Source: Actinomycetota bacterium
GTDB lineage: Bacteria; Actinomycetota; Acidimicrobiia; Acidimicrobiales; Aldehydirespiratoraceae
Direction: 5' to 3'
Assembly: GCA_029979265.1 (NCBI GenBank)
Contig: JAPOHW010000014.1
Location: forward strand, 22,552-86,551
Length of the DNA: 64,000 nucleotides
Position numbers and translations under genes: made by a program. The notes under the pieces are model-generated. The model saw only the letters and a list, made by a program, of their open reading frames with translations, was not told the origin of the DNA and ran no database searches. This document shows, one piece after another, positions 21,701 through 27,959 of this stretch; the first letter of the stretch is position 1, and each line of letters begins with the position of its first letter.

Positions 21701-23350
21701 TCAGGCTCGCAGATCGTCGACGGACGCCCACGGCGTCAGGCGGTCCGGTGGCATGACCAGATGGAGCAGCGCACCTGTCGGTGACGCCATCGCTCGCTGC
21801 ATTGCCGGACCGAACTGCTCGGTGCGATCGACTCGTTCGGCGTGCATGCCGTAGGCGGCGGCAATTGCGACGAAGTCCGGGTTGACGATCGGCGTCCCAC
21901 TGATGCGCTCGGGGTATGAGCGTTCCTGGTGGGCTCGGATCGTGCCGTACATGGCGTTGTCGAACACGAGCACGATGGGCTCGAGTCCGGCCTGTCGAGC
22001 CGTGCCCAGCTCCTGCATCGTCATCTGGAAGTCACCATCACCGGCGAAACAGACGACCGTGCGGTCGGGGTGAGCGGCCTTGGCTGCGATCGCAGCGGGC
22101 AGGCCGTAGCCCATGGTTCCGTTCTGAGGAGCGAGGAGCCGGGCTCGGCTTCCGTACCGGAAGAGCTTCCCGTTCCAGATCGAGAAGTTCCCGGCCCCGT
22201 TGGTGATGATCACATCGTCAGGCAGGTTGGCCTCGAGCCAGCGCATGCCCTCGGCCATGTCGAGATCACCGGGCTGGGGTGGTGCGCCGAATCCGTCGAG
22301 GAAGGCTGCTCGACGGGTGGCCCGCCATTCGGCTCGCTGCGCAGCTTTCGCCACGGTGCGGTTGCGAAGCAGACCGATGGTGACCGACGGATCGCCGCAG
22401 ACGCCCACGGTGGTCGGGTAGATCCGGCCGATCTGGGTTCGCTCGGGGTGAATGTGGACGATCCGCTGCGTCGGTTCGTCGAGATCGATCAGGGTCCAGG
22501 CTGCCGTCGTCATCTCGCCGAATCGGATACCGAGTCCAACGATGACATCGGCGTCCACGATCGTGTCGCGCACCGCTGGCACCATGGCAATGCCCGCTTC
22601 ACCGACGTAGTGGTCGCTGTGGTTGTCCATCAGGTCGTGGAACCGCCACGCAGCGACGACCGGGATGTCGTTGGCCTCGGCGAACGCAGCCAGATCGTCG
22701 CGCGCCTCGAGCGTCCAGCGACCTCCACCGGCAATGATGACCGGACGTTCGGCCGCTTCCAGTTCGGCGATGATGGCATCGATCTCGGCATCGGTCGGGG
22801 TGGCACGCTCCACCTCGAGCGGTGTCACGTCGGTCGCTGCGGTGGAGGCTCGCAGCATGTCCTCGGGCAGGGCGATGGCCACCGGTCCGGGCCGGCCCGA
22901 CACGGCGATCTTGAATGCGTGTTGCATGGTTTCGGCGAGATCGTCGACACGGTCGACCTGGTGGACCCACTTGGTGAGCGAGCCGAGCACGCGTTGGTAG
23001 TCGAGTTCCTGGAAGGCTTCGCGCCCGATCTCATGGGTGCTGACCTGTCCGATCAGCACCACCATCGGTTGGGAGTTTTCGCGTGCTGCGTGGATCCCGA
23101 CCGAGGCGTTGGTCGCTCCGGGCCCGCGGGTGACCATGCAGATACCGGGCGTGCCGGTGAGTCGACCCCAGGCTTCGGCCATATAGGCAGCCCCGCCTTC
23201 CTGGCGGCAGATGACGAAGTCGATGTCGGTGTCGTGGAGTGCGTCGAGCACGGCAAGGTAGCTCTCGCCGGGAACACCGAAGGCGTGGGTGACGCTGTGG
23301 GCGACGAGGGCGTCGACGACGACCTGGCCACCGGTGCGGATCTCGCCCAC
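21701..23350 (-). CDS. thiamine-pyrophosphate-dependent enzyme (acetolactate synthase large subunit-like)
   Basis: FGVPGESY, RQEGGA, TRGPGATN, GDGDFQM...N ThDP motif. Confidence 0.9.
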   Translation of the reverse strand: MGEIRTGGQVVVDALVAHSVTHAFGVPGESYLAVLDALHDTDIDFVICRQEGGAAYMAEAWGRLTGTPGICMVTRGPGATNASVGIHAARENSQPMVVLIGQVSTHEIGREAFQELDYQRVLGSLTKWVHQVDRVDDLAETMQHAFKIAVSGRPGPVAIALPEDMLRASTAATDVTPLEVERATPTDAEIDAIIAELEAAERPVIIAGGGRWTLEARDDLAAFAEANDIPVVAAWRFHDLMDNHSDHYVGEAGIAMVPAVRDTIVDADVIVGLGIRFGEMTTAAWTLIDLDEPTQRIVHIHPERTQIGRIYPTTVGVCGDPSVTIGLLRNRTVAKAAQRAEWRATRRAAFLDGFGAPPQPGDLDMAEGMRWLEANLPDDVIITNGAGNFSIWNGKLFRYGSRARLLAPQNGTMGYGLPAAIAAKAAHPDRTVVCFAGDGDFQMTMQELGTARQAGLEPIVLVFDNAMYGTIRAHQERSYPERISGTPIVNPDFVAIAAAYGMHAERVDRTEQFGPAMQRAMASPTGALLHLVMPPDRLTPWASVDDLRA

Positions 23351-23353
23351 GGG

Positions 23354-24160
23354 CTAGAGGTCTTCGATCGGGGGAAACGTGTCGGGGTGGACGATGTCGA
23401 CGGTTGCCGACCGCTGCTGGGCAAGCATGCCGCCGTCGACCTTGATGACGTCACCGGTGACGTAGGCCGCGTCGTCGCTGGCGAGGAACAGCGCTGGTCC
23501 GGTCATGTCGTACGGGTCGCCGATTCGTCCTGCGGGGATGTTGACGCCGCGGTAGGCCCGAGCCTCCTCGTCCATCCCGGCGGTGTCGATCGAGCCGGGC
23601 ATCAACGCGTTGACCCGAACGTTGTAGGGGCCGAGGTCGAGGGCCATGGCCCGCGTGAGGGCCTCGATCCCACCCTTGCTCGCGTCGTAGGCGGTGAAGC
23701 TCCGATGGGCACGAGTGGCGCCTCCAGAGCTCATGTTGATGATCGAACCGCCCCCCTTCTTGGCCATGATGCGGGCGGCGACATGGCAGCACAGGAAATG
23801 CCCGGTGAGGTTCACGTCGATGATTCGTCGCCACCACGCTTCGTCGGCGTCGAAGAAGTGCAACATCGGGCTGACGAGACCGGCGTTGTTGACCAGCACG
23901 TCGACGGTGCCAAAGGTGTCGATCGTCTGGTCGAACATGCTCTTGACCTGCGTACTGTCGGACACGTCGGCGGGGGCGGCGATCGCCGTCCCGCCGGCAT
24001 CGTTGATCCCGGCGGCCACCCCTTCCGCCGCCGTTTCGTCGATGTCGTTGACGACGACCGACGAGCCGACCGAACCGAAGCGTTCGGCGATCGCCTGGCC
24101 GATTCCCTTGCCGGCGCCGGTGACGACGACGACCTTCCCTGCGAGGTCCGGGTGAGTCAT
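23354..24160 (-). CDS. short-chain dehydrogenase/reductase
   Basis: TGAGKGIG, NNAG, YDASK. Confidence 0.93.
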   Translation of the reverse strand: MTHPDLAGKVVVVTGAGKGIGQAIAERFGSVGSSVVVNDIDETAAEGVAAGINDAGGTAIAAPADVSDSTQVKSMFDQTIDTFGTVDVLVNNAGLVSPMLHFFDADEAWWRRIIDVNLTGHFLCCHVAARIMAKKGGGSIINMSSGGATRAHRSFTAYDASKGGIEALTRAMALDLGPYNVRVNALMPGSIDTAGMDEEARAYRGVNIPAGRIGDPYDMTGPALFLASDDAAYVTGDVIKVDGGMLAQQRSATVDIVHPDTFPPIEDL

Positions 24161-24201
24161 GCGCCGTACGCTAGCGTCCGCGTTCTGCAGGAGGAGCGGT
24201 C

Positions 24202-24783
24202 ATGGCGTGGATCGAACGGATTCCGGACGACGAATGGATCGGCGAGCTCGAGCCGCTCCGCGAACGGGTCGTGGATCGTGACGCGAACCGGATCGACAAC
24301 ATCATGAGTGTCCACTCACTCAACCCTGCGAGCGTCGCCGCCCACGATGCGGTGTACCGATCGGCGATGGCGGGTACCAAGACGTTGCGCAAGGTGGAAC
24401 GAGAGTTGATCGCTTACGTCGTCTCCGACATCAACGGCTGTCACTATTGACTCACGCATCACCGGCGCGGTCTGCGCCGACTGCTCAAGGACGATGCACT
24501 GCTCGCTCGCATCGATGAAAGCTGGGAAACGGCCGGACTCGGCCCGAAGCGGACGGCGATGCTCACCTACGCCGTCAAACTCACACGGACACCGGGCGAG
24601 ATGGTCGAGGCCGACGTCGATGCGCTGCGAGCGGTCGACTTCACCGACCGCGATGTCCTCGACATCTGCGACGTGACGGCCTACTACGCGTACGCCAATC
24701 GGATCGCCGACGGCCTCGGGATCGAGGTGGAAGACTGGTACCCACCGGAGCCACCGATGGGTCATTGGGGGGACGACAGGTGA
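24202..24783 (+). CDS. AhpD-like/carboxymuconolactone decarboxylase-family peroxidase-related enzyme, predicted selenoprotein (CxxU, 193 aa)
   Basis: ORFs 24202-24450 and 24559-24783 are in one frame, separated only by TGA 24448-24450; read-through gives ERELIAYVVSDINGCHYULTHH...YAVKLTRTP...AYYAYANRIADGLG; SECIS-like hairpin follows. Confidence 0.85.
24451..24480 (+). other. putative bacterial SECIS element
   Basis: Stem CGGCGC/GCGCCG (24463-24479) with loop GGUCU; GGUCUGC occupies +22 to +28 counting from the U of UGA. Confidence 0.75.
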
Positions 24784-25709
24784 GGTTCTTCACCGATGCC
24801 GACATCGGCGCAGCGCTGCCGTGGCCTGCGTTGATCGAATCGATCGAACAGATCATGATCGAGCCCGACGCCACTGCGCCGGCTCGGACGCTCCACACGG
24901 TGCCCGACGGCAACGGCAACGATGCCTCGTTCCTGTTGAAGCCTGGGTGGGTCGCTGGGGAGTTGATCGGAGTGAAGGCGGTGACCGTCTTTCCCGACAA
25001 CGGCGCGCAGGAGCTTCCGATGGTGCAAGCCGGTGTCCTGCTGTTCGACGGCACAACGGGATCGCTCGTCGGAGCCTGCGAGGCAAACGTGCTGACCACG
25101 CGCCGCACCGCGGCAGCGTCTGCAGTGGCGGCAAAGCGACTCGCCCGAGCCGATGCCCGAACGCTGCTGGTGGTCGGATCTGGTGCGCTGGCACCGATGG
25201 CCGTGCAGGCCCATGCGGCGGTTCGGGACTTCGACGTCATTCGGGTGTGGGGGCGAGATCGAGCAAAGGCCGCCGCAGTCGTCGATGCAGTTGCTTCAGA
25301 GGGCCTGTCGGCCGAGGTGGCCGTCGATCTCGATGCCGCTGTGGCCGACGCGGACGTCATCTCCTGCGTCACCGGCGCAACCCAGCCGATCATTCGTGGT
25401 GCGTTGCTGCGACCGGGCTCGCACGTCGATCTGATCGGTGGCTTCAATCACGCCATGCGAGAAGCCGACGATGACGTCATTCGCCGTGCGTCGGTGTTCG
25501 TCGACACCTATGACGATGCGGTGATCGCGGGCGATATCGCGCAGCCCCTCGAGTCTGGCGTCCTCACCCGAGATGATCTGGCCGCCGACTTGGCCGAGCT
25601 CGTCGCCGGTGCCCATCCGGGTCGCAGCCGAGACGACGAGATCACGATGTTCAAGTCGGCGGGAACGGCACTCGAGGATCTGGCGGCTGCTCGCCTCGCA
25701 TTCGGCTGA
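24780..25709 (+). CDS. ornithine cyclodeaminase/mu-crystallin family imine reductase (possible Delta1-pyrroline-2-carboxylate reductase)
   Basis: GVKAVTVFPDN, TTRRTAAASA, VVGSG, FKSAGTALEDL; GTG start overlaps the upstream stop (GTGA). Confidence 0.88.
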   Translation: MRFFTDADIGAALPWPALIESIEQIMIEPDATAPARTLHTVPDGNGNDASFLLKPGWVAGELIGVKAVTVFPDNGAQELPMVQAGVLLFDGTTGSLVGACEANVLTTRRTAAASAVAAKRLARADARTLLVVGSGALAPMAVQAHAAVRDFDVIRVWGRDRAKAAAVVDAVASEGLSAEVAVDLDAAVADADVISCVTGATQPIIRGALLRPGSHVDLIGGFNHAMREADDDVIRRASVFVDTYDDAVIAGDIAQPLESGVLTRDDLAADLAELVAGAHPGRSRDDEITMFKSAGTALEDLAAARLAFG

Positions 25710-25784
25710 ACATCGACCTGGATGGTCGAACCGATCGTGCGGCTCGACGAAGCCGACCCGGCCGATCCTGAACGCTTCGCTGCG

Positions 25785-26195
25785 TCAGCCGGTGGTGATC
25801 GTGCCGTCGGGTGCCATCACGACAGCGTCGGCCCTGGCAAGGTCCCGGTAGGTCGCATCATCGACGGTGAAGATCGGCACGGTGATGTCGTAGAGCTCTT
25901 CGGCGACGAGCGCACCGATCACGAGAATCTCGTCGGCGTGCTGCATCACGATCCCCGCTGGACCGATCCCGGCTCGGAGGACCTCGGTCAGCACCGACGA
26001 CCCGCTGCTCGAGCCTCGTCCTGCGGGAAGGAGGAGGATGCGGCCGACGATGGACTCCCCGACCTGGGGGTGGGCCTGGTCGATGATGATGCCGGTCCAC
26101 GGGTCGAGGCCGCCCCAGAAGCTGATCGGTTCTTCGAGATGAAGCATCGGACCGCGGGCCTCGCCGGCCATCAACACCCGCTCGGCTTCAGGCAT
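25785..26195 (-). CDS. aconitase X swivel-domain small subunit (DUF126)
   Basis: PISFWGGLDP.TG, HPQ.G, GRGSSSGS. Confidence 0.88.
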   Translation of the reverse strand: MPEAERVLMAGEARGPMLHLEEPISFWGGLDPWTGIIIDQAHPQVGESIVGRILLLPAGRGSSSGSSVLTEVLRAGIGPAGIVMQHADEILVIGALVAEELYDITVPIFTVDDATYRDLARADAVVMAPDGTITTG

Positions 26196-27456
26196 CGACC
26201 CACACACCGTCGTCGCGGACGATCTCGCCGCGTACCGCTGACTCAATGCACTCCTCGACCGACCCGAACGCCACGTCGAGGCCCAGATTGCCAGGCGCGT
26301 AGTAGGCCCATTTCGCCGAGTCGGTCATGGCAACGCCCTCGACATCCTCCATGATCGGCGTGATGTAGGTGCAGGTGTCGGTGACGATCTGCACCCCGCT
26401 GGCCTCCAAGCGAGCGACCCATCCCCGCAGTGCGATCTCGTTGGCAACACTGCGACCGGTGTTGATGTAAAGACGAACATGCGGGTGGACCTGCCGGTCG
26501 TCGAGGACATCGACCACCCGCCCGAACTCGGCCACCGAATAATGCGGTGTCCCCAGACTCACGACCCCGAGCCGGGACGAGGTCGAGGTCGTCAGTTGAT
26601 CGCGGGCCAGCCGAAGATCGGCGGCCGTCACGACGTGGGTCTCGGCTGCAGGAGCGCCGCCGAGGGCTGCCTCGAGGGTCGGAGCCTCCGGGGTCGAGCC
26701 GACGAAGTGGAACATGGCGAGCGCGCCGGCGGCTGCGCCGGCTGCGCCGAGGGCCTTGAGGAGATGTTCGGGAACCTGGTCGGGGCCGCCGACCACCACT
26801 GGCACCGACCGGCCGACCCGCTTGCCGATGTGATGGCCGAGCAGCGGGTAGAAGGCGTCGAGGGTGATCAGGCGTTCGGGCACGGCACCCACATCGAATA
26901 CGACCGTTGCGCGGCGATGTTCGTCGAGATGCAGACCGGCGAGCGGAGCGCGTCCCGTGATCGCAGCAGAGATGTCGAGGAAATCGCCGTAGCGGTGCGT
27001 GCGCGCACCGAGGACCGAGTTGGCGAAGACGATGGCGTTGGACTCGGCCCAGGCCACGTGCTCGCCCGGGTTCGGGCGGTTGTCGTGTTGGTACGGAGCG
27101 CACGTGAAGGTCGGTCGGCAGCCCATGCCTTCGTACAACTCCATCAACAATCGTCCCTGTGACGCGGTGTGGGCATCGCCCCGAAAGAGTTCGGGGTGGA
27201 TCAGGTCGAGCGAGCTGACGTTGAGAGTGGAAGGCACCACCACCTGTGCACCGCCCTCGGCGAGACGCCGGGGGAAGTCGACACTCGCCTGCCCGTTGTA
27301 GAGGCACGAGTCGATGTGGGCACCGGTGATGTCGACCAACCGCTCGGCCCGCATCACCTCTGCGGTCCGGCTGACGACGCGCATTGCGAGGGCGGCGGCC
27401 GGACCGCCGTCGCCGTTGAGGAGCGCTTGGTCGCGATCGTCGAGGGTGAGGGGCAT
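26188..27456 (-). CDS. aconitase X catalytic large subunit (DUF521)
   Basis: AHIDSC, TFTCAPY, AWAESNAIVFANSVLGART, LGTPH, DTC, TDSAKWAYY. Confidence 0.9.
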   Translation of the reverse strand: MPLTLDDRDQALLNGDGGPAAALAMRVVSRTAEVMRAERLVDITGAHIDSCLYNGQASVDFPRRLAEGGAQVVVPSTLNVSSLDLIHPELFRGDAHTASQGRLLMELYEGMGCRPTFTCAPYQHDNRPNPGEHVAWAESNAIVFANSVLGARTHRYGDFLDISAAITGRAPLAGLHLDEHRRATVVFDVGAVPERLITLDAFYPLLGHHIGKRVGRSVPVVVGGPDQVPEHLLKALGAAGAAAGALAMFHFVGSTPEAPTLEAALGGAPAAETHVVTAADLRLARDQLTTSTSSRLGVVSLGTPHYSVAEFGRVVDVLDDRQVHPHVRLYINTGRSVANEIALRGWVARLEASGVQIVTDTCTYITPIMEDVEGVAMTDSAKWAYYAPGNLGLDVAFGSVEECIESAVRGEIVRDDGVWVDA

Positions 27457-27479
27457 TGGCGTCACCGTAGTCTGACCGC

Positions 27480-27959
27480 ATGGACGCGCAGCCCGAAGCG
27501 ACGCTTGCAGACGACGAGGCCCAGCTGGCTGCGTTTGCGCTCGACCTCGGTGATCGCATCGAGGCTGCGATCCCGGACTGGGTCGAGCGTTCACTTCGAG
27601 CACGAGGGGGTGCGGCATTCGATGCGGTGGCGGCTGCCGGTGTGGCAGCTGCGACCGCAGAGGAGGTCATGTCACCGCTTCGCATGGTCCTCGCAGCTGA
27701 TGTCGATCGTGCTGCGGGCTCCCCGCTGGCGGCGCTGAGAACGGGTGTCGGCCCGATGACCAGATGTCTGGACGCCTGGGGTGTGCCACGTCCGATGAGG
27801 GACGAGTTCCAGCAGCGTCGGTTTCCGAATGATCCGTTCGAACTCGGCCCGGCGGCCTTCAGCGAGGTCGACCCGTCGCTGCATGAACCGGGACTCGTGT
27901 GGGGGGCGGCCCGGGCCCATGTTCACCTTCGACGTCGTCGGGAGGCCGGCGGTGGCTGA
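27480..27959 (+). CDS. hypothetical protein
   Basis: 159 aa with GC-type codon usage; TAGTCT 6 nt before ATG; WGAARAHVH C-terminus. Confidence 0.65.
   Translation: MDAQPEATLADDEAQLAAFALDLGDRIEAAIPDWVERSLRARGGAAFDAVAAAGVAAATAEEVMSPLRMVLAADVDRAAGSPLAALRTGVGPMTRCLDAWGVPRPMRDEFQQRRFPNDPFELGPAAFSEVDPSLHEPGLVWGAARAHVHLRRRREAGGG

What the first reader, a model, noticed from the sequence alone, without database searches (positions are those of the whole stretch)
24202..24783. Hidden selenoprotein: AhpD-like peroxidase with CxxU and a positionally conserved SECIS
Seen: the track shows two fragments, but TGA 24448-24450 falls exactly on the second Cys of the AhpD motif (SDINGC-H-Y-TGA-LTHH), and the frame stays open to 24783 with family-typical C-terminal motifs. 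Directly downstream is the hairpin CGGCGC-GGUCU-GCGCCG. Counting from the U of UGA, GGUCUGC lies at +22 to +28, the same sequence and offset as I recall for the SelB-binding apex of the E. coli fdhF SECIS. Known: AhpD-like (COG2128) CxxU selenoproteins have been described, but Sec use is patchy in Actinobacteria. Inference: this lineage decodes Sec, and automated annotation would split or pseudogenise this gene.
Basis: partly seen in the sequence, partly recalled or inferred. Interest (0 to 1): 0.85.

Follow-up and report, generated by a model that had tools for sequence, protein, structure and literature searches.

The report
AhpD-like selenoprotein gene with SECIS
This is one real gene for a small redox enzyme that uses selenocysteine at an in-frame TGA, a protein family already known from ocean metagenomes, so it is a sound but ordinary find that automatic annotation tends to cut in two.

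Summary
Window 24202-24783 (+) is one 193-codon gene of the AhpD-like / peroxidase-related family (TIGR01926, 133.5 bits against a cut-off of 81.8). Its TGA at 24448-24450 sits on the second Cys of the CxxC centre (C80-H-Y-U83). The hairpin CGGCGC-GGUCU-GCGCCG follows at 24463-24479.

The genome carries tRNA-Sec (UCA), selA, selB and a Sec-form selD. In 116 of 117 related loci that cover the codon it is TGA. The one TGC locus keeps the same peptide but has lost the loop U and two stem pairs.

The stem covaries: 95.9% of cells pair, 13 cells change on both sides, and 0 of 500 shuffles reach this. The loop codons GGT and CTG are frozen in 86 of 86 distinct sequences, while other invariant residues vary freely at their third positions. 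GGUCUGC at +22 to +28 is identical to E. coli fdhF, read here from NC_000913.3.

The family has been in print as a CxxU selenoprotein since 2005-2008, so this is a new member of a known kind. The thermodynamics of the single hairpin are not significant; the case rests on comparison. Selenium insertion and enzyme activity are untested.

The parts
24190..24196 (+). Shine-Dalgarno-like GGAGGAG, 5 nt before the start codon
   Evidence: Read directly; inferred role.
24202..24783 (+). Complete AhpD-like / peroxidase-related selenoprotein gene: 193 codons plus stop, with Sec at codon 83
   Evidence: translation with TGA=U. (Pfam CMD PF02627, 1.1e-10). (TIGR01926, 133.5 bits, cut-off 81.8, residues 31-176, spanning the TGA). 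(PDB 3c1l, 7.2e-31, residues 29-180, spanning the TGA).
24403..24405 (+). Glu68, invariant. Candidate proton-relay residue by analogy with AhpD.
   Evidence: Invariant in alignment A3. The role is inferred from recalled M. tuberculosis AhpD work.
24439..24441 (+). Cys80, first residue of the CxxU redox centre
   Evidence: TGT/TGC in 86 of 86 distinct sequences.
24448..24450 (+). In-frame TGA read as selenocysteine (U83), at the second Cys position of CxxC
   Evidence: TGA in 116 of 117 related loci. Cys in solved homologues at this column.
24460..24462 (+). His87, invariant, four residues after Sec
   Evidence: Invariant in A3 and in 86 of 86 (codon +4). The role is inferred.
24463..24479 (+). 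SECIS hairpin: 6-bp stem CGGCGC/GCGCCG and apical loop GGUCU (24469-24473), lying inside codons R88-R93
   Evidence: minimum-energy structure of the 45-nt stretch. (covariation). (GGT and CTG frozen in 86 of 86). (6 of 6 pairs in 100 of 116 TGA loci; loop GGTCT in 114 of 116). (same loop and spacing as E. coli fdhF).
24781..24783 (+). True stop TGA. It overlaps a possible GTG start (24780) of the downstream OCD/mu-crystallin gene.

Best explanation
Window 24202-24783 is one intact gene for a 193-residue AhpD-like (carboxymuconolactone-decarboxylase fold, TIGR01926 'peroxidase-related enzyme') selenoprotein of an Acidimicrobiales bacterium.

**Shown.** The UGA at codon 83 replaces the second Cys of the CxxC redox centre. 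It is followed 12 nt later by a 6-bp hairpin with apical loop GGUCU. Both are conserved and the stem covaries across relatives. The genome holds the full Sec machinery.

**Inferred.** During translation, SelB carrying Sec-tRNA(Sec) binds the hairpin through its C-terminal winged-helix domain (G23/U24 of the loop). It delivers Sec to the UGA instead of letting release factor 2 terminate. The product uses a Cys80-Sec83 selenenylsulfide couple, helped by Glu68 and His87. It most likely reduces peroxides or oxidised partner thiols, as AhpD does for AhpC. The hairpin lies in the coding sequence, so it also fixes the peptide R-R-G-L-R-R.
For: - **Family.** TIGR01926 at 133.5 bits (cut-off 81.8) over residues 31-176, and PDB homologues (3c1l at 7.2e-31, also 2pfx, 2oyo, 2prr, 6k40). 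All align across the TGA and have Cys there.
- **Machinery.** tRNA-Sec at 64 bits with anticodon tca. SelA at 3.4e-94. SelB wing domain at 58.9 bits in a 584-aa frame. SelD at 4e-109, itself with U in SHGAG-U-GCK.
- **TGA conservation.** The codon is TGA in 11 of 11 best loci in the order, 80 of 80 species-representative loci and 25 of 26 metagenome loci. All 10 other TGA-form genomes have SelA.
- **Translation past the TGA.** Invariant residues downstream have free third positions, for example Arg at codon +34 with 1.81 bits. A 95%-alike contig differs at third positions in 24 of 32 in-gene sites, 11 of 16 of them after the TGA.
- **RNA-level constraint.** The stem at columns 16-21/27-32 pairs in 95.9% of cells. 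Pair 18-30 reads GC 61, GU 7, CG 6, AU 3, UG 1, with 0 of 500 shuffles reaching this. The competing hairpin shows no change on both sides. GGT and CTG are frozen in 86 of 86.
- **Controls.** The one Cys locus, L124, encodes the same HHRRGLRR but reads CGT CGG GGC CTG, with loop GGCCT and 4 of 6 pairs. Nineteen Cys or other paralogue loci have 0-4 pairs and no GGTCT loop. L023 changes the peptide to GEGLLR yet keeps a paired stem and the GGTCT loop.
- **Other selenoprotein genes of this genome.** An FdhA-like gene has GGUCU at +22, a GPx gene has GGUC at +25, and selD has GGUCG at +36.
- **E. coli comparison.** fdhF has the identical GGUCUGC at +22 to +28.
Against: - No experiment shows selenium in the product.
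- The hairpin alone is not more stable than shuffles (z = -0.76, -1.52). Simple TGA-plus-GGTC-hairpin matches are common: 86 in the genome.
- No Rfam family matches.
- The stem has no bulged U like U17 of fdhF.
- A few TGA loci have weakened stems: 3 of 116 have 4 or fewer pairs. One has another hairpin and loop (L022) and one has AGUCU (L142).
- Only one Cys-form locus could be read as DNA, so that control has n = 1.
- Many of the 116 loci are close kin and therefore not independent (100 distinct 60-mers).
- The peroxidase or reductase role is inferred from family membership only. The gene neighbourhood is conserved only among close relatives: OCD lies downstream in 21 of 90 loci.
Confidence: 0.94

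Rival explanations
1. The TGA is a nonsense mutation or an assembly or base-call error, and the gene is a pseudogene.
For: the ORF listing splits the frame. Gene callers cut homologues in two.
Against: The same codon is TGA in 116 of 117 loci from many species. Contigs of three DNA runs from three studies show no difference at 24448-24450 (some may be the source sample). The protein downstream is under purifying selection.
Confidence: 0.01
2. Two separate small genes are made: an 82-residue N-terminal protein that ends at the TGA, and a C-terminal protein restarted just after it.
For: Forty-eight database entries start at the residue after the TGA. Termination at UGA always competes with Sec insertion.
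Against: The AhpD-core domain and the solved homologues run unbroken across the site. The codon after the TGA is CTC here and varies (CTC, GTG, ATC, ACG) in relatives, so there is no conserved start. No ribosome-binding site was seen. The active-site Cys would be split from its His87 partner.
Confidence: 0.02
3. The UGA is read through without selenium (Trp, Cys or another near-cognate tRNA). The hairpin only slows the ribosome or is a by-product of the R-R-G-L-R-R peptide.
For: Six database entries were translated with W at the site. The hairpin lies in coding sequence, and the peptide is conserved even in Cys forms.
Against: All four sel genes are present. Synonymous sites are frozen exactly in the loop, and the Cys form with the same peptide has lost them. 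The loop equals the SelB-binding loop of fdhF. The same loop follows the TGA of FdhA-like, GPx and SelD genes in this genome. This gene also uses TGA as its ordinary stop.
Confidence: 0.03

Closest known systems
AhpD-like protein selenoprotein family (AhpD-like 1, COG2128 / TIGR01926, CxxU), from the Sargasso Sea and GOS metagenomes
   Same: Same HMM family, over its cut-off, and the same CxxU motif with Sec at the second Cys. The family is listed with 299 Sec members in GOS (PMC2398784, table passage) and as 'AhpD-like protein, TIGR01926, CxxU' in a 2026 review table (PMC13188914, passage).
   Different: This copy is from an Acidimicrobiales genome. Within its clade Sec is nearly fixed (116 of 117 loci), whereas the published family has more Cys than Sec members (902 Cys against 299 Sec in GOS). 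The SECIS details given here were not seen in the passages read.
Escherichia coli fdhF SECIS
   Same: GGUCUGC at +22 to +28 from the U of UGA, inside the reading frame. The hairpin is directly downstream, and the loop falls within the 16-37 nt range stated for bacteria (PMC10778597, passage).
   Different: The window has a perfect 6-bp G+C stem and a 5-nt loop closed by C-G. There is no bulged U17, no A21-U26 closing pair and no long lower stem reaching the UGA. The importance of U17, G23 and U24 for SelB is recalled, not read here.
Mycobacterium tuberculosis AhpD and solved AhpD-core proteins (3c1l Mlr4105, 2pfx, 2oyo, 2prr, 6k40)
   Same: Same fold family by sequence (E = 7.2e-31 to 1.7e-19). 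The motif E...C-x-x-C-x-x-x-H aligns column for column.
   Different: All the solved proteins have Cys where this one has Sec. M. tuberculosis AhpD proper (TIGR00777) scores only 25.9 bits against a cut-off of 191.95, so this is not an AhpD orthologue. No AhpC partner was looked for.
NF041238 AhpD_rel_CFYUT alkylhydroperoxidase-related (seleno)protein
   Same: A CxxU selenoprotein with an AhpD-like domain.
   Different: It scores 43.8 bits against a cut-off of 175 and matches only the C-terminal part of a 357-position model. Not a member.

Membership tests
AhpD-like protein selenoprotein family (TIGR01926, CxxU) | Scores above the curated cut-off of the family model | tested here: met
   133.5 bits against 81.8, residues 31-176 on profile positions 29-175 of 178.
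AhpD-like protein selenoprotein family (TIGR01926, CxxU) | CxxC redox motif with TGA at the second Cys | tested here: met
   C80-H-Y-TGA. Cys is aligned there in the solved homologues and in 38 database homologues.
AhpD-like protein selenoprotein family (TIGR01926, CxxU) | Peroxidase or thiol-reductase activity that depends on the Sec residue | not testable with these tools
To my knowledge the family itself is uncharacterised biochemically (recalled).
Bacterial SECIS element | Hairpin in the reading frame directly after the UGA, with the apical loop 16-37 nt from it | tested here: met
   The stem starts at +16 and the loop at +22, 18 nt after the UGA. The range comes from a passage in PMC10778597.
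Bacterial SECIS element | G followed by U in the apical loop (the SelB contact) | tested here: met
   Loop GGUCU, the same letters and offset as fdhF, in 114 of 116 TGA loci. That G23/U24 contact SelB is recalled.
Bacterial SECIS element | Structure conserved through compensatory change | tested here: met
   Four of 6 pairs show changes on both sides, in 13 cells, with 0 of 500 shuffles reaching this. Slid registers pair in 18-53% of cells against 95.9%.
Bacterial SECIS element | Bulged U in the 5' arm, as U17 of E. coli fdhF | tested here: not met
   The stem has six contiguous pairs and position 17 is a paired G. This is a feature of the E. coli element (recalled), not of all bacterial SECIS.
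Bacterial SECIS element | Binds SelB and directs Sec insertion | not testable with these tools
   Needs a binding or reporter assay.
Sec-decoding trait | selC (tRNA-Sec, UCA), selA, selB and selD present in the genome | tested here: met
   (C9:64039-64130). (C9:79638-80684). (C9:82292-82426, in a 584-aa frame). (C14:6213-7139).
Rfam SECIS families | Match to a curated covariance model | tested here: not met
   No hit at the gathering threshold in the window. No SECIS hit at E up to 10 in 24380-24560. A preprint notes that bacterial SECIS are poorly covered by Rfam (10.64898/2026.04.03.716425, section 19 read).
AhpD proper (TIGR00777) | Scores above the equivalog or subfamily cut-off | tested here: not met
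   25.9 bits against 191.95.

The most novel reading that the evidence does not exclude
In Acidimicrobiales this AhpD-like clade is close to obligately selenium-dependent: 116 of 117 loci have TGA. Its SECIS has written itself into the protein. The conserved peptide R-R-G-L-R-R, and above all Gly90 (Ala or Ile in Cys paralogues and in solved structures), would exist because the RNA needs CGG CGC GGU CUG CGC CGN.

The apical loop and its spacing are letter-for-letter those of E. coli fdhF. They recur after the TGA of the FdhA-like, GPx and SelD genes of this genome. The SelB-loop recognition code would then be shared between Actinomycetota and Proteobacteria, and this gene might be expressed as a selenoprotein in E. 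coli without any SECIS engineering.
Probability: 0.4. Interest if true: 0.4.

Novelty: new member of a known kind. Interest (0 to 1): 0.3.

Why it matters
**Annotation.** This gene and dozens of its relatives sit in public databases as two fragments or as 'hypothetical protein'. Recognising the TGA as Sec restores a complete redox enzyme and corrects the selenoproteome of a widespread group of aquatic Actinomycetota.

**Biology.** It adds little that is new. The family, the CxxU motif and Sec use in Acidimicrobiia are all in print.

**What is useful.** The data set is very clean: 116 TGA loci, one Cys convert and 19 paralogue controls. It shows how a SECIS constrains synonymous sites and even the amino-acid sequence. 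It also offers a candidate natural selenoprotein gene whose SECIS loop matches the one E. coli SelB recognises.

Tried and rejected
- **Rfam.** The whole window at gathering threshold and 24380-24560 at E up to 10 gave no SECIS family, only three chance-level hits to unrelated families.
- **Competing hairpin.** The 53-nt fold preferred a hairpin at columns 20-25/32-37.
- **Thermodynamics.** The z-scores are not significant, so I did not use them as support.
- **Genome-wide scan.** The scan for TGA plus a GGTC-loop hairpin at +20 to +25 gave 86 candidates. Of these, 25 had 30 or more open codons on both sides. I looked at 15 of the 25 by eye and sent 3 to Pfam. FdhA-like and GPx were confirmed. 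The C40 candidate had no family and stays open. The other 12 looked like out-of-frame, Arg-rich translations and were dropped without a search. The scan window missed selD, whose loop is at +36.
- **Synteny.** It holds only among the closest relatives, so it gave no functional lead for the wider family.
- **Cys forms.** The close Cys forms P0006-P0009 and P0013 could not be read as DNA.
- **P0003.** Its L at the Sec position could not be explained.
- **RNA-library contig.** The contig in X15 covers the gene, but contigs cannot show transcription, so I count it only as a sequence variant.
- **Not run.** Structure prediction and complex prediction, because solved homologues already span the site by sequence. 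Supplements of the papers are closed, and the member lists of the AhpD-like family (GOS, BSepDB) that might already hold this lineage were not seen.
- **Unpublished genomes.** G042, G065 and G143 are marked unpublished. They enter only the tallies 44 of 151 (G042, a weak Cys-paralogue hit) and 102 of 151 (SelA in all three). No TGA locus, alignment or SECIS claim rests on them.

Full report
**What is in the sequence.** Window 24202-24783 (+) starts with ATG five bases after GGAGGAG. It runs in one frame to TGA at 24781-24783, with a single internal TGA at 24448-24450. A mechanical ORF list cuts it into 24202-24450 and 24559-24783. The internal TGA follows TGT CAC TAT, so the motif is Cys80-His-Tyr-TGA. 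Twelve bases later come CGGCGC (24463-24468), GGTCT (24469-24473) and GCGCCG (24474-24479).

**What the protein is.**
- Read through, the 193 residues match Pfam CMD (PF02627, 1.1e-10).
- They match NCBIfam TIGR01926 'peroxidase-related enzyme' at 133.5 bits (cut-off 81.8), over residues 31-176, that is, across the TGA.
- AhpD proper (TIGR00777) and the CFYUT selenoprotein model (NF041238) are far below their cut-offs.
- Solved structures 3c1l, 2pfx, 2oyo, 2prr and 6k40 align at 7.2e-31 to 1.7e-19 across the site. They have Cys where the window has TGA, within the conserved E...C-x-Y-C-x-x-x-H pattern.

**Does the organism decode Sec?** Its genome is 3.31 Mb in 105 contigs, 93.7% complete. It holds:
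- tRNA-Sec at C9:64039-64130 (64 bits, over the Rfam cut-off; ARAGORN anticodon tca);
- SelA at C9:79638-80684 (3.4e-94);
- a SelB winged-helix domain just downstream, in a 584-aa frame;
- SelD at C14 (4e-109) with its own in-frame TGA in SHGAG-U-GCK.

In a sample of 151 genomes of the same order, SelA is over its cut-off in 102. That tally includes three unpublished genomes, G042, G065 and G143. Sec use is therefore common here, not patchy.

**Relatives.**
- *Protein databases.* A word-indexed search gave 115 homologues. Of these, 48 begin at the residue right after the TGA position and 7 end at or before it. Six have W there, one has L, two have S and 38 have Cys. This is the footprint of gene callers stopping at a conserved TGA.
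- *Same order.* At the DNA level, the 11 best places in 151 genomes of the order (identity 99 to 36%) all have TGA at that codon. The weaker hits are CxYC or Cys-less paralogues.
- *Species representatives.* A scan found 586 relatives. The best 80 were kept, and 80 of 80 have TGA. Seventy-three of the 80 record titles name Actinomycetota, mostly Acidimicrobiales (checked in part). Three name other phyla and four say only 'bacterium'.
- *Metagenomes.* A scan seeded with the close Cys forms returned 27 loci, of which 26 cover the codon: 25 TGA and one TGC.
- *Total.* 116 of 117 loci have TGA. These comprise 100 distinct 60-mers, and many are close kin.

**The hairpin.**
- *Pairing and covariation.* On the 91-sequence alignment (82 distinct rows), the stem at columns 16-21/27-32 pairs in 95.9% of cells. 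Four of six pairs show changes on both sides, in 13 cells. Pair 18-30 reads GC 61, GU 7, CG 6, AU 3, UG 1, other 4. None of 500 shuffles reaches the observed values, and slid registers pair in only 18-53% of cells. The competing hairpin from the 53-nt fold shows no change on both sides.
- *Frozen codons.* Positions 18 and 30 are third codon positions of Arg codons, so the covariation is between synonymous sites. Among 86 distinct sequences, Gly +7 is always GGT and Leu +8 is always CTG. Other invariant four- or six-fold degenerate residues have third-position entropies of 1.6-1.8 bits: Arg -16, Ala -12, Leu +11 and Arg +34.
- *Three controls.* L124, the one TGC locus, encodes the same HHRRGLRR but with CGT CGG GGC CTG. 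Its loop is GGCCT and only 4 of 6 pairs remain. Nineteen paralogue loci have 0-4 pairs and never GGTCT. L023 changes the peptide to HHGEGLLR yet keeps a paired stem (GGAGAA/TTCTCC) and the GGTCT loop.
- *Exceptions.* L022 has another hairpin with loop ACCUC. L018 and a few others have weakened stems. L142 has AGUCU.
- *Single-sequence stability.* The hairpin is the minimum-energy structure of the 45-nt stretch, but it is not more stable than shuffles (z = -0.76).

**Comparison with E. coli and with other genes of this genome.** fdhF was read from NC_000913.3. It has TGA followed by GGTCTGC at +22 to +28, exactly as in the window. The fdhF stem has a bulged U and an A-U closing pair that the window lacks.

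A scan of the genome for TGA followed by a GGTC-loop hairpin found 86 places. Three of them were sent to Pfam:
- an FdhA-like molybdopterin oxidoreductase (CNRT-U-HAPSV, PF00384 across the TGA, loop GGUCU at +22);
- a glutathione peroxidase (NVASR-U-GLT, PF00255 across the TGA, loop GGUC at +25);
- a C40 candidate that matched no family.

selD has GCGCA-GGUCG-UGCGC with its loop at +36. All four recognisable selenoprotein genes thus carry a GGUC loop within the 16-37 nt range quoted for bacterial SECIS (PMC10778597, passage).

**Reads.** Contigs of three DNA runs from three studies cover 24150-24850 with 0-1 differences and none at the TGA. Some of these runs may be the source sample. A contig from an RNA library covers the gene with 37 differences, and none lies between 24418 and 24506. 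Of the 32 in-gene differences listed, 24 are third codon positions, including 11 of 16 after the TGA. So the same frame is under selection on both sides of the TGA. Contigs cannot show transcription.

**Mechanism.**
- *Shown:* the gene, the conserved TGA, the conserved and covarying hairpin, and the Sec machinery.
- *Inferred from established knowledge of bacterial Sec insertion:* SelB with Sec-tRNA(Sec) binds the loop and decodes the UGA.
- *Inferred from recalled AhpD work:* Sec83 is the attacking nucleophile, Cys80 resolves, and Glu68 and His87 relay protons.

The substrate is unknown.

**What is known already.** 'AhpD-like 1, COG2128, CxxU' has 299 Sec and 902 Cys members in GOS (PMC2398784, table passage). 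A 2026 review lists 'AhpD-like protein, TIGR01926, CxxU' (PMC13188914, table passage). BSepDB uses the family as its browsing example (PMC13326102, passages). A 2026 preprint reports the Sec machinery and about five selenoproteins per genome in Actinomarinales, another order of Acidimicrobiia (10.64898/2026.04.03.716425, section 19 read). My searches for the family together with Acidimicrobiia (find) found no passage naming this clade or its SECIS. Supplements were closed and may hold it.

**Verdict.** It is a new member of a known family, so its interest is modest.

Noticed in passing
G000:C14:6213-7139 (-), locus L011 2397-2395: The genome's selD is itself a selenoprotein gene (MTKRLTEFSHGAG-TGA-GCK). 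It has two hairpins after the TGA; the second is GCGCA-GGUCG-UGCGC with its loop at +36.
   Followed up: partly
G000:C13:42621-44648 (-), locus L151: An FdhA-like molybdopterin oxidoreductase with an in-frame TGA (CNRT-U-HAPSV). PF00384 spans the TGA. The SECIS loop GGUCU starts at +22, the same offset as in the AhpD-like gene and in E. coli fdhF.
   Followed up: partly
G000:C94:114562-115098 (+), locus L152: A glutathione peroxidase with an in-frame TGA (VNVASR-U-GLTPQY). PF00255 spans it. The hairpin is ACGCA-GGUC-UGCGU with its loop at +25 (z = -2.28).
   Followed up: partly
G000:C40:11836-12501 (-), locus L153: A frame that is open on both sides of a TGA (EPYG-TGA-GKKFEV), with a GGUC-loop hairpin but no Pfam match. 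It could be chance or an unknown selenoprotein.
   Followed up: partly
G000:C9:64039-82426: tRNA-Sec, selA and selB lie within about 18 kb on one contig, with selB directly after selA.
   Followed up: no
window 21701-27618: The gene neighbours are a TPP enzyme (-), an SDR (-, divergent from the AhpD-like gene), an OCD/mu-crystallin gene (+, a possible GTG start at 24780 overlapping the TGA stop as GTGA), a 210-aa ORF with no Pfam match, and AcnX (-). From recall, AcnX with an OCD-family reductase suggests hydroxyproline catabolism. The SDR and OCD neighbours are kept only in the closest relatives (32 and 21 of 90 loci).
   Followed up: partly
proteins P0002, P0004, P0010-P0012, P0015; P0003: Six database homologues show W at the Sec position, presumably because gene calling read TGA as Trp. 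One NCBI entry (P0003) shows L there, which I could not explain.
   Followed up: no
L055, L065, L091: Three of the 80 closest loci come from MAGs labelled Gammaproteobacteria, Planctomycetaceae and Verrucomicrobiales, yet they are 64-73% identical to the Acidimicrobiales gene. Mis-binned contigs or gene transfer could explain this.
   Followed up: no
L142:1747-1806, L022:1315-1374: Two TGA loci depart from the GGUCU loop. L142 has AGUCU (Gly to Ser). L022 has a different hairpin, GCACG-ACCUC-CGUGC, with no G-U in the loop.
   Followed up: no
window 24418-24506: In a contig about 95% identical, from a salt-marsh RNA library (X15), the 89 bases around the TGA and SECIS carry none of the 37 differences. 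This is the longest difference-free stretch in the first 385 bases of the gene.
   Followed up: partly
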